Positions 6,420 through 60,866 of a stretch of DNA of 64,000 nucleotides are shown here, one piece after another. This DNA is from Eledone cirrhosa. Lineage: Eukaryota. The position numbers and the translations under genes are program-made. Each line of letters starts with the position of its first letter. The stretch's first letter is position 1. Under the pieces are notes generated by a model that ran no database searches, had not been told where the DNA came from, and saw only the letters and a list, made by a program, of their open reading frames with translations. The DNA lies in the NCBI GenBank assembly GCA_964016885.1, contig OZ024744.1:123690001-123754000 (forward strand), written 5' to 3'.

Positions 6420-6464
6420 AGTCATAGTTCTTTCGCCACACACTCTGTGACCTCTTCAGTGACT
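6420..6464 (-). ncRNA. Type I hammerhead ribozyme motif, family A
   Basis: Reverse-complement copy of 6581-6625. Confidence 0.7.
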
Positions 6465-6580
6465 GGGGATTTCTTTCTTCGTTTCTGTGCCTTTCCTTTC
6501 TTCTATCCTACGCCATTTTGTTTGCAAAATGGCGTAGGATAGAAGAAAGGAAAGGCACAGAAACGAAGAAAGAAATCCCC

Positions 6581-6625
6581 AGTCACTGAAGAGGTCACAG
6601 AGTGTGTGACGAAAGAACTATGACT
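6581..6625 (+). ncRNA. Type I hammerhead ribozyme motif, family A
   Basis: agtca-CTGAAGA-g-gtcaca(gagtg)tgtgac-GAAA-gaac-TA-tgact. Stem I agtca/tgact, 6-bp stem II, minimal helix III, CUA site. Confidence 0.75.
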
Positions 6626-6784
6626 ATATATATATAAACAACTATCTGGTTGTGGAACCAACCAACCAACCAGAAATTTATAAATTTGTAAATTTATAAA
6701 TATATATTAAATTAAATTGAAGTGAAAGCAACTGGTGCGTGTGTTTCTTATTGGCAACATGACCCTCCCAAAGTATAACAATAT

Positions 6785-8440
6785 GTATATATATATATGT
6801 ATATATGTATATATATATATATATATATATATATATATGTATATATATATATATATATATATGTATATATATATATATGTATATATATATATATATATAT
6901 ATATATATGTATATATATATATATATATATATATGTATATATATATATATATATATATATATGTATATATATATGTATATATATATGTATATATATATGT
7001 ATATATATATGTATATATATATGTATATATGTATATATATATGTATATATATATGTATATATATATGTATATATATATGTATATATATATGTATATATAT
7101 ATATGTATATATATATGTATATATATATGTATATATATATGTATATGTATATATATATGTATATATATATGTATATATATATGTATATGTATATATATAT
7201 GTATATATATATGTATATATATATGTATGTATATATATATATGTATATATATATATGTATATATATATATGTATATATATATATGTATATATATATATGT
7301 ATATATATATATGTATATATATATGTATATATATATGTATATATATATATGTATATATATATATGTATATATATATATGTATATATATATGTATATATAT
7401 ATATGTATATATATATATGTATATATATATGTATATATATATATGTATATATATATATGTATATATATATGTATATATGTATATATATATGTATATGTAT
7501 ATATGTATATATATATATGTATATATATATATGTATATATATATATGTATATATATGTATATATATATATGTATATATATATATGTATATATATATATGT
7601 ATATATATATATGTATATATATATATGTATATATATATATGTATATATATATGTGTATATATATATGTGTATATATATATATGTATATATATATATGTAT
7701 ATATATATGTATATATATATATATGTATATATATATGTATATATATATGTATGTATATATATATGTATATATATATGTATATATATATATATGTATATAT
7801 ATATATGTATATATATATGTATATGTATATATATGTATATGTTTATATATATATATGTATATATATATATGTATATATATATATATGTATATATATATGT
7901 ATATATATATATGTATATATATATATATGTATATATATATATGTATATATATATATGTATATATATATATGTATATATATATATATGTATATATATATAT
8001 GTATATATATATATGTATATATATATATATGTATATATATATATGTATATATATATATGTATATATATATATGTATATATATATATGTATATATATATAT
8101 GTATATATATATATGTATATATATATGTGTATATATATATGTGTATATATATATGTGTATATATATATGTGTATATATATATGTATATATATATATGTAT
8201 ATATATATATGTATATATATATATGTATATATATATATGTATATATATATATGTATATATATATATGTATATATATATATGTATATATATATGTATATAT
8301 ATATGTATATATATATGTATATATATATATGTATATATATGTATATATATGTATATGTATATATATGTATATATATATATATATATGTATATATATGTAT
8401 ATATATGTATATATATATATATATATGTATATATATATAT
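6785..8440. repeat. ~1.65-kb (TA)n/(TATG)n microsatellite
   Basis: Direct inspection. Confidence 0.97.
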
Positions 8441-59024: not shown

Positions 59025-59717
59025 AATAATACACATATATGTGTATTATTATTCCTGTCTTTATTCTACAAGATTATCTATCAAGCAGAAATAGAGAGCA
59101 GATTTCAATATACTAATAAAATATATATCAGAAACAAAAACTAAAAAAATAAAAAGATAACAATAATAATAATAATAAGTAATAATAAAATAGAAAACTA
59201 AAAAAATATTACGAAAGAATATTATATATTAAAAATATTACATATTAAAAAATATATTACGTATTAAAAATTTTTTACATATTAAAGATATTAAAAATAA
59301 AAATAAAAAAATATTATAAAATACTACAATAACAAAAAAATAAATAAAAAATAAAAATAAAAATAAACCACAAAGATCAACCCTTCAAAATTAATTGACA
59401 ATATATTGCCAAGTTCATTATAAGACAAAGTTAAAAAATTATCTATCAAATCACATCTAGCAAAGATCAATTCAAAAAGTTTATGATGTCCGAATTGGTC
59501 TACATGTGTTCTTATATTTAATATAGAAGTTTATCTAGTGTAAGGTTTATTCAAAATATTTGGAGCATCAGCTTTTAGGGTAGCTTAATTTTTCATGAGG
59601 AATGTTTAAATAAAAATAAAATAAAAATAAACAATAAAAAAAGAATAAAAAGAAGGAATCAAAAATTTAAGGAATCAAAAATTTATCGGCTAGTTTCACA
59701 TATAAATATGAATCAAA

Positions 59718-60608
59718 CTAAATATACCACATTTTAAATTTAAATTTATATTTAAACGTTGAGTTTAATCTATGTTTGCAACAACTGAATAAATTTGTCC
59801 GTAGATTAAGGGAATTTTTAGATTTTAGTATAAAGAATATCTCCTCTGCGCAGAGGTCACATGTCTCAGAGGATGAATTAAAAGGAATCCCTCTTGAGAC
59901 TATATTCCAAGCCGTCGAATATCTAACGTTATCTAGCTTAAGTTGCCAGAGTACGCCTGATAGTGCCGTTGAAGATTTTTTACTTGGATCTGTGAACGAA
60001 TTCTTGTGGTTATTATAGCGAAGTTTAAATTCCGTCGATGTGGAACCGATGTAGTTAAAAGAATTAGAGTCAGTATTAACATTACAATTGTATACTATAT
60101 TTTTAACTAAGCAGTTGTTATTTAATGGACATTTAGATCTATCTCTACAGTTACATTTGTTAACTTGTATATTATTTATGCTATTATCACTAGGTTTTAA
60201 GTTCCTATTATTTATTCTATTAATATTTTGTGCTAAATTTTTGGTGGATGAGTAGGTTAATTTAATTGTATGCCTATTGAAAATTGAGTGATACCTATGT
60301 GTTCTAGGGAAGCGATTATCAAGAGCTTTGAAAAATAATTTAGCGATGTGGGTTTTAATGTTTAGTGAGAAAGGGGGAGCAAACCAAATTATGTTCCTAG
60401 TTCTATTTCTTTTTTGGCCTTTGGAATTATTGTAATGCTTTCTATTATAGTTGTTAAGGTTGTTGCCGTAATTAAAAAAGTTGTTACTTTGTTTAGTTTG
60501 TCTATCATTATCTATGTACACAATCTTATCAGCATATCCTGCCCTAGCTAATGCTTCATTATAGTATTGGGCCTTTTCGTCGAAAATCTTTCTATTCGAC
60601 GAGATCCT
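59718..60608 (-). pseudogene. PLE C-terminal fragment (linker plus GIY-YIG), same clade as the 17.4-kb element
   Basis: NIIWFAPPF, CNCRDRSKCPL, NIVY..YIGSTSTEFKLR, CDLCAEE. Confidence 0.85.
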
Positions 60609-60712
60609 ATATATATATATATATTTATATATATATATATATATATATTTAAAAATATTAAAAAAATAATGAATAAAACAATGAAACAGTTCCTTATATT
60701 AAACAAAAAAAG

Positions 60713-60866
60713 TTCATTATTTAACGATCGTTTCTAGGATATATATGTGTTAGAATTGGCATGCATATTCAACAGATCTATGTACAAAATTATACAAAAT
60801 TATACAAACTATCAAAATTAAATATACATACCAACTCATATATATGCCGTCTTCAGAAATAATGAA
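60713..60866 (-). ncRNA. Type I hammerhead, family H
   Basis: Copy of 49578-49732. Confidence 0.78.

What the first reader, a model, noticed from the sequence alone, without database searches (positions are those of the whole stretch)
6420..60866. About two dozen hammerheads from ~10 families, with family-specific palindromic helix III (possible dimerisation code)
Seen: helix III sequences ATGCGCAT (B), ACGATCGT (H), ACCGTCGGT (T), ACTAATTAGT (D), ATATATAT or ATATGTAT (C, E), ACATTGT (G), AGAACT (A), and one conventional 4-bp hairpin (F). Established: PLE pLTRs carry minimal type I hammerheads whose weak palindromic helix III favours double-hammerhead cleavage. Inference: distinct palindromes restrict pairing to the same family, so cleavage would sense tandem copies. 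Families C and E share an (AU)4-type helix and could cross-activate or pair with (UA)n read-through RNA.
Basis: partly seen in the sequence, partly recalled or inferred. Interest (0 to 1): 0.75.

Follow-up and report, generated by a model that had tools for sequence, protein, structure and literature searches.

The report
Penelope hammerheads with two-helix self-pairing
The window holds about two dozen hammerhead-ribozyme motifs on the ends of Penelope-like jumping genes; their self-complementary third stem fits the published idea that they likely cut only in pairs, but the same palindrome is shared by unrelated families, so it is not by itself a family code.

Summary
Observation confirmed: 22 intact and 4 damaged type I hammerheads in about 11 families (strict scan 19 versus 0.1 per shuffle). 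They sit on end repeats of Hydra- and Neptune-type Penelope-like elements and on one 457-bp tandem retrozyme-like repeat. Palindromic helix III is real: the loop-central four bases are self-complementary in 25 of 31 families. Dimer cleavage of such motifs is published (2014, 2017). The 'code' is not supported. ATATATAT occurs in 49,509 core matches genome-wide and in 6 of 42 sampled families; words are shared more, not less, than chance. A double hammerhead must swap helix I as well as III, so predicted specificity is two-part. C+E share helix III but are predicted incompatible through helix I; B+E and C+T share helix I and differ in III. (UA)n RNA cannot be a substrate. Combined orthogonality is no greater than after shuffling. 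Only 8 of 100 B copies have a tandem partner. No pile-up of insertion ends at the cut; no RNA data. Side features: helix II up to 115 nt. The scan reported the same readings before in this genome and others.

The parts
6417..6467 (-). Family A hammerhead (helix III AGAACT), arm of inverted pLTR pair
6578..6628 (+). Family A hammerhead
14352..14422 (+). Family B hammerhead (ATGCGCAT), solo pLTR fragment in (TA)n
16929..21161 (+). Near-complete young Hydra-type PLE of family B: short inverted piece 16929-17046, 5' pLTR 17047-17263 identical over 217 bp to 3' pLTR 20945-21161, between (TA)n tracts
17163..17233 (+). Family B hammerhead in 5' pLTR, predicted cut after 17225
17411..19840 (+). 809-aa ORF with Hydra motifs RWT, DKT, YRDD, CxCx5C, YFGST, CxxC, CxH
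   Evidence: motif list from PMC8557442; no Pfam or PDB hit
21061..21131 (+). Family B hammerhead in 3' pLTR, tandem with 17163 (3,898 bp apart)
21824..22212 (.). Fold-back pair of family H ends; 22017+ core lacks its 5' helix I strand, 21896- is a 3' half
26876..28641 (.). Family T: 457-bp tandem units (2.9 copies, +) preceded by an inverted unit; retrozyme-like, no ORF over 69 aa in two units
27055..27141 (-). Family T hammerhead (ACCGTCGGT, 51-nt helix II)
27568..27654 (+). Family T hammerhead
28025..28111 (+). Family T hammerhead
28482..28568 (+). Family T hammerhead
31530..31609 (+). Family C hammerhead (ATATATAT; helix I GCTGT/ACAGC, same as T)
34151..34221 (+). Family B hammerhead
34460..35995 (-). 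5'-truncated family A PLE: RT thumb and GIY-YIG pieces (Neptune/Nematis-type cysteine linker seen by eye), 3' pLTR hammerhead 34592-34642(-), inverted pLTR hammerhead 35746-35796(+)
   Evidence: (GIY-YIG E 3.4e-4, just under cut-off)
37978..38027 (-). Degenerate hammerhead (core and helix II intact, helix I broken)
44404..44474 (+). Family B hammerhead
45919..46004 (-). Family D hammerhead (ACTAATTAGT, 49-nt helix II)
48064..48128 (-). Family E hammerhead (ATATGTAT; helix I TTTTAT/ATGAAA, cross-compatible with B)
48992..49061 (+). Family E hammerhead, damaged helix I
49388..49435 (+). Family G hammerhead (ACATTGT), canonical-size helix II, damaged helix I
49580..49730 (-). Family H hammerhead (ACGATCGT, 116-nt helix II)
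55150..55204 (-). Family F hammerhead, arm of fold-back pair
55221..55275 (+). Family F hammerhead (ACAGTTCTAGTCCTGT)
55515..55580 (-). Family E hammerhead (ATATATAT variant)
60715..60864 (-). Family H hammerhead (115-nt helix II)
63456..63517 (-).

Best explanation
These are type I hammerhead motifs in the pseudo-LTRs of many co-resident Penelope-like retrotransposon families (Hydra-type B and H, Neptune-like A) and of a tandem retrozyme-like repeat (T), predicted to cut mainly as strand-swapped double hammerheads formed in cis between two copies on one transcript. Shown: motifs, their element context, self-complementarity of helix III across dozens of families, sharing of words between families. 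Inferred from topology: if helix III pairs between copies, the strand that gives U16.1 and H17 also gives 1.1, so helix I is swapped too; a partner must match in both helices. Inferred: the palindrome is kept because any copy must pair with an identical copy; which palindrome a family carries drifts, sometimes by multi-site compensatory change, and family-level exclusivity follows as a by-product of divergence in helices I and III plus cis proximity, not as a selected code. Cleavage itself is untested here.
For: Central four bases, which cannot pair inside a monomer hairpin, are Watson-Crick self-complementary in 25 of 31 families with 6-10-nt even-length words (29 of 31 with G-U; 1 in 16 expected for uniform bases). 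121 of 132 motifs in 1.58 Mb are palindromic or nearly so, versus 0 of 4 hits in one shuffle. Monomer helix III costs +1.5 to +5.6 kcal/mol for A, B, C, D, E, H while homoduplexes are -2 to -10.5 except A. In 5 of 5 natural tandem pairs the double hammerhead is 8.6-20.3 kcal/mol below two active monomers, and lies within 1 kcal/mol of the free optimum in 2. Word sharing exceeds chance: 17 family pairs versus 2.3; cross-compatible pairs 8 of 703 versus 0.94 after permutation, and all 8 are between families with matching helix I and look-alike flanks. Word is conserved while helix II diverges (H and its distant relative L264; D-like families). B ORF carries the Hydra motifs. Published: PMC4209133, review PMC6765202, PMC7229834.
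Against: No cleavage or expression data. Insertion junctions of B do not pile up at the cut. Most genomic copies are solo or inverted (B: 59 inverted only, 33 solo, 8 tandem of the first 100), so they cannot form a cis dimer. F, T and K monomer hairpins are near neutral (-1.4 to +0.4) and may cut alone; A does not self-pair well; H's consensus monomer fold buries the core; the B tandem pair in L024 lies 75 kcal/mol above its free fold. Published in vitro activity of such dimers is low. Nearest-neighbour energies ignore tertiary contacts. Sister-like families sharing helix I but with different palindromes exist (B versus E; C versus T; ACAATTGT versus ACGGCCGT), which a selected code would also predict.
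Confidence: 0.78

Rival explanations
1. Selected family code: helix III (with helix I) diverges under selection so that co-expressed families, or retrozyme parasites, cannot trigger or poison each other's cleavage.
For: 35 words in 42 families; 44 of 45 window pairs are predicted incompatible, the exception being two variants of family E; 9 of 17 helix-I-compatible family pairs are separated by helix III alone (5.7-14.8 kcal/mol); four-site compensatory switches between look-alike families.
Against: Either helix alone already excludes over 92% of pairs (III 652 of 703, I 680 of 703), so exclusivity is the default; observed compatibility is above, not below, permutation (8 versus 0.94; after dropping 5 relatives 0 versus 0.14, little power); the commonest word is shared by tens of thousands of copies of many families.
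Confidence: 0.1
2. The longer-stem families (F, T, K, D) work as ordinary monomeric hammerheads and the palindromic look is partly just a hairpin stem.
For: Monomer hairpins -1.4 (F), +0.4 (T, K), +1.5 (D) kcal/mol; ACCTCTGGT and ACCTTTGGT loops are not self-complementary.
Against: Loop bases are self-complementary in 4 of 5 odd-length families and in F (CTAG); T tandem pair prefers the double fold by 8.8 kcal/mol.
Confidence: 0.25
3. The motifs are mostly non-catalytic in vivo: structural or protein-binding elements of the pLTR (or passengers), the palindrome serving RNA dimerisation only.
For: No junction pile-up at the cut; low published activity and explicit mention of non-cleavage roles; Naiads spread without canonical hammerheads; long helix II arms and an inactive H fold.
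Against: Catalytic core and NUH are kept across 42 families whose other sequence has diverged; T arrays look like products of a circular or multimeric RNA template.
Confidence: 0.12
4. The (AU)4 helix is used to pair with (TA)n target DNA or (UA)n read-through RNA, the cut RNA end priming insertion.
For: ATATATAT is the commonest word and Hydra elements insert in (TA)n.
Against: Only 295 of about 49,500 such motifs run on into (TA)n (control 106); element 3' ends lie 40-135 nt past the cut; B and H target (TA)n with non-AU words; (UA)n cannot form helix I.
Confidence: 0.03

Closest known systems
Minimal and small-palindromic-helix-III hammerheads of metazoan PLE pLTRs (Cervera and De la Pena 2014, PMC4209133; Lunse et al. 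2017, PMC5785218, known only from its title and a review)
   Same: Type I topology, location in pLTRs, unpaired base after A9 in several families, palindromic helix III, many variable families per genome, dual copies on opposite strands 100-700 bp apart, predicted dimer action.
   Different: Palindromes here are longer (6-11 nt, F 16 nt) and helix II reaches 45-115 nt in 16 of 42 families versus 6-8 bp described; G10.1-C11.1 is often replaced.
Hydra-clade PLEs (Craig et al. 2021, PMC8557442; includes Hydra-1_Obim of Octopus bimaculoides in File S1)
   Same: Single ORF, RWK-like, DKT, CxCx5C linker, CxxC and CxH, no CCHH, (TA)n insertion, hammerhead present.
   Different: B element is 4.2 kb with clear pLTRs (paper: generally under 3 kb; Hydra-1_Obim listed without pLTR). 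No tree against named Hydra proteins was built.
Metazoan non-LTR retrozymes (PMC7229834; bioRxiv 10.64898/2026.07.22.740005)
   Same: Family T: non-coding tandem units with one type I hammerhead each, arrays up to 18 units.
   Different: 457-bp unit at the upper edge of the 150-450 bp range, 51-nt helix II, arrays show PLE-like diverging inversions (10 of 10 strand switches); circular RNA not shown.

Membership tests
Type I hammerhead of PLE pLTRs | CUGANGA / GAAA / NUH core with helices I and II | tested here: met
   22 intact of 41 cores; 19 versus 0.1 in shuffles
Type I hammerhead of PLE pLTRs | Location in terminal repeats flanking a PLE ORF | tested here: met
   B, A, H; E-linked EN remains at 1.3-2.1 kb in two loci; not shown for C, D, F, G, K
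Type I hammerhead of PLE pLTRs | Short palindromic helix III | tested here: met
   25 of 31 families; exceptions A, F
Type I hammerhead of PLE pLTRs | Self-cleavage as dimer, little as monomer | not testable with these tools
   Only folding energies
Hydra-clade PLE (family B) | RWK-like, DKT, CxCx5C, CxxC, CxH motifs, no CCHH, C-terminal EN | tested here: met
   RWT58, DKT144, CNCRIKNKC680, YFGST714, CNLC780, CLH808 against the list
Hydra-clade PLE (family B) | Insertion in (TA)n | tested here: met
Hydra-clade PLE (family B) | Placement in the Hydra clade on an RT tree | not tested
   No reference proteins in hand; Pfam and PDB gave no hit
Non-LTR retrozyme (family T) | Non-coding tandem unit of a few hundred bp with a type I hammerhead in each unit | tested here: met
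   457 bp, 330 genome matches, 69 of first 100 tandem, longest open frame 69 aa
Non-LTR retrozyme (family T) | Expressed as linear and circular monomer RNA | not tested
   8 versus 0.94; 0 versus 0.14 after pruning relatives

The most novel reading that the evidence does not exclude
Helix I and helix III together form a two-part, strand-swapped self-recognition key: dozens of co-resident PLE families and their retrozyme parasites each cut only with their own kind, and lineages that share helix I have been pushed to switch palindromes by multi-site compensatory change (ATATATAT to ATGCGCAT through G-U steps; ACAATTGT to ACGGCCGT) to escape cross-triggering, an RNA-level incompatibility system between transposons.
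Probability: 0.1. Interest if true: 0.7.

Novelty: new member of a known kind. Interest (0 to 1): 0.27.

Why it matters
As it stands the finding is a correct catch of a published feature in a genome where it is abundant (at least 18,310 B, 4,254 H and 49,509 (AU)4 core matches). Its use is practical: a natural panel of dozens of hammerheads with defined helix I and III matches (B+E, C+T, C+E) makes the open question of what PLE hammerheads do, and whether dimer cleavage reports tandem transcription, directly testable, and long-helix-II motifs show that standard descriptors undercount them. A selected incompatibility code between transposon families would be new, but the evidence here points away from it.

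Tried and rejected
Rfam scan: no hammerhead family among the rows shown, swamped by (TA)n false hits. DNA search of G000 with the B motif returned nothing because common words are skipped. First descriptors with helix II up to 45-75 nt missed H; H was first suspected to be false, then confirmed with a 115-nt arm (30 of 30 loci carry the 3' half). Word-sharing count included loci picked for ATATATAT and was redone without them. Idea that the cut end primes on (TA)n: rejected. Idea that copy ends mark the cut: 5' starts at the cut 166, at about -12 147, at about +12 42; with my estimated pass rates (0.52, 0.23, 0.14) about 320, 630, 305, so no excess; 3' ends at the cut 10. ESM Atlas gave no result. 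Lunse et al. 2017 is not held. Paper searches for 'double hammerhead' with 'heterodimer' gave 0 papers and 'hammerhead ribozyme' with 'octopus' nothing on this point; subscription papers are not covered, so absence from print is not shown. Rows dropped before counts: 4 of 42 families (words under 6 or over 17 nt, one evident misparse); window motif 49000 left out and four hand-checked window motifs added; five relatives dropped in the second permutation.

Full report
Setting. The window is 31% G+C, with about 18 kb of TA-type microsatellite, many LINE remains and PLE pieces. It lies in a 3.0-Gb genome, G000:C28:123690001-123754000. An octopus-like animal is likely from the element content and earlier notes, but I did not test this.

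Observation. A strict type I descriptor finds 19 motifs against 0.1 per shuffle. All quoted helix III words are there. A is not a palindrome, F is partly one, and H needs a 115-116-nt helix II; H has at least 4,254 copies and 30 of 30 fetched loci carry the 3' half, 29 with ACGATCGT. Six of 45 pairs in the H alignment fold show a two-sided change, mostly through one divergent row, and that fold buries the core.

What carries them. Family B flanks an 809-aa ORF with two pLTRs identical over 217 bp; the ORF has the motifs listed for Hydra-clade PLEs but no Pfam or PDB hit. B has at least 18,310 copies. H loci carry RT and EN pieces 29-47% identical to B. A lies 174-310 bp behind a GIY-YIG piece in 6 of the 9 EN matches. 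T is a non-coding 457-bp tandem unit: 330 matches, 69 of the first 100 in tandem, and 10 of 10 strand switches diverging as in PLE inversions, which fits retrozymes as non-autonomous PLE derivatives.

Is the palindrome functional? In 1.58 Mb sampled without regard to hammerheads (400 kb next to the window, 1.18 Mb spread over the large contigs) there are 132 motifs, 74 perfectly and 121 nearly palindromic; one shuffle gives 4 hits, none palindromic. Clustering on everything except core and helix III gives 42 families. The four central bases are self-complementary in 25 of 31 families, which a monomer hairpin does not require. In 5 of 5 natural tandem pairs the double hammerhead is favoured over two monomers by 8.6-20.3 kcal/mol. 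This supports intermolecular pairing, as published in 2014 and summarised in a 2019 review citing Lunse et al..

Is it a family code? Most families have their own word (35 in 42), but ATATATAT is used by 6, ACTAGT and ACCATGGT by 2 each; 17 family pairs share a word against 2.3 expected for random palindromes. Genome-wide, 49,509 cores end in ATATATAT (control 190) with visibly different helix II arms. By topology (inference), the strand that supplies U16.1 and H17 also supplies 1.1, so a double hammerhead swaps helix I too; swapping helix II instead would need pairing from inside a closed loop. Nearest-neighbour sums for the ten window motifs: C+E match in III (0 to -0.5) but fail overall by 10.6-16 kcal/mol; B+E match in I and fail by 6.3-11.1 through III; C+T match in I and fail by 14.8 through III; only E1+E2 are compatible. 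Among 38 families, 652 of 703 pairs are excluded by III alone and 680 by I alone; 8 are compatible, all between families with matching helix I and look-alike flanks. Permuting words gives 0.94 on average, so compatibility follows likeness of families and is not depleted; after dropping five relatives it is 0 versus 0.14, a test with little power.

Tandem sensing and (UA)n. Of the first 100 B copies, 8 have a same-strand neighbour within 6 kb, 59 only an inverted one, 33 none; in the sample 26 of 154 are tandem (10-kb pieces undercount neighbours). (UA)n RNA offers U at 1.1, which cannot pair with 2.1 in 9 of 10 motifs. Only 295 (AU)4 cores run on into (TA)n, and B ends lie 40-50 or 135 nt past the cut. 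Junction counts at, before and after the B cut show no excess.

Mechanism. Likely: a transcript spanning two same-strand pLTRs or retrozyme units folds a strand-swapped double hammerhead and releases a unit-length RNA, perhaps circularised, for reverse transcription; single or inverted copies stay largely silent. Shown are sequence, context and statistics; folding is predicted; cleavage, expression and circles are untested.

Papers seen: PMC4209133, parts 1-2 of 4 of the text; PMC8557442, passages and a search of its supplement (first places only); PMC6765202 and PMC7229834, passages; bioRxiv 10.64898/2026.07.22.740005, part 1 of 5 and passages (supplement closed); Lunse et al. 2017, title only. 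Supplementary figures of these papers could hold similar words or long arms. Hammerhead position numbers are standard usage, recalled.

Verdict. Real, abundant, and a new member of a known kind. The code reading is not supported; the two-helix compatibility table is the useful by-product. Interest 0.27.

Noticed in passing
window 60715-60864(-), 49580-49730(-); sample families: Helix II is 45-115 nt in 16 of 42 families, far above the 6-8 bp described; standard descriptors would miss them. H's monomer consensus fold pairs the core with GAAAC.
   Followed up: partly
window 26876-28641; G000:C1:156425837-156438384: Family T retrozyme-like arrays, up to 18 units on one strand followed by 9 on the other, always diverging: looks like PLE-driven insertion from a multimeric or circular template.
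   Followed up: partly
L074:1147(-),1194(+); L077:1840(-); L088:2067(+): Probable U3-A8 core variants (TTGAAAA or TTGATAA) with palindromic helix III ACCGGT or ACAAGGCCCTTGT, like the Schistosoma variant in PMC4209133.
   Followed up: no
L020:4214-7670: Eight tandem units about 492 bp apart with ACTAGT hammerheads plus one inverted copy; double fold within 0.9 kcal/mol of the optimum.
   Followed up: partly
window 8828-12067(-): Intact 1079-aa LINE ORF with endonuclease, RT and a PHD finger; several decayed copies and a second family about 75% alike.
   Followed up: no
window 12228-14243: About 555-bp tandem repeat, three to four copies, 97-99% identical, without a hammerhead core.
   Followed up: no
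window 15160-15551; 48187-48809: Perfect or near-perfect fold-back segments (392 and 623 bp), the first between (TA)n tracts and without a hammerhead.
   Followed up: no
window 59718-60590(-), 61009-61932(+): Two further Hydra-type EN fragments (CxCx5C, CxxC, CxH) of different families, 39-46% identical to B's EN.
   Followed up: partly
L222, L244: Relatives of B with unrelated upstream sequence but the same or nearly the same palindrome and a shifted helix I register.
   Followed up: no
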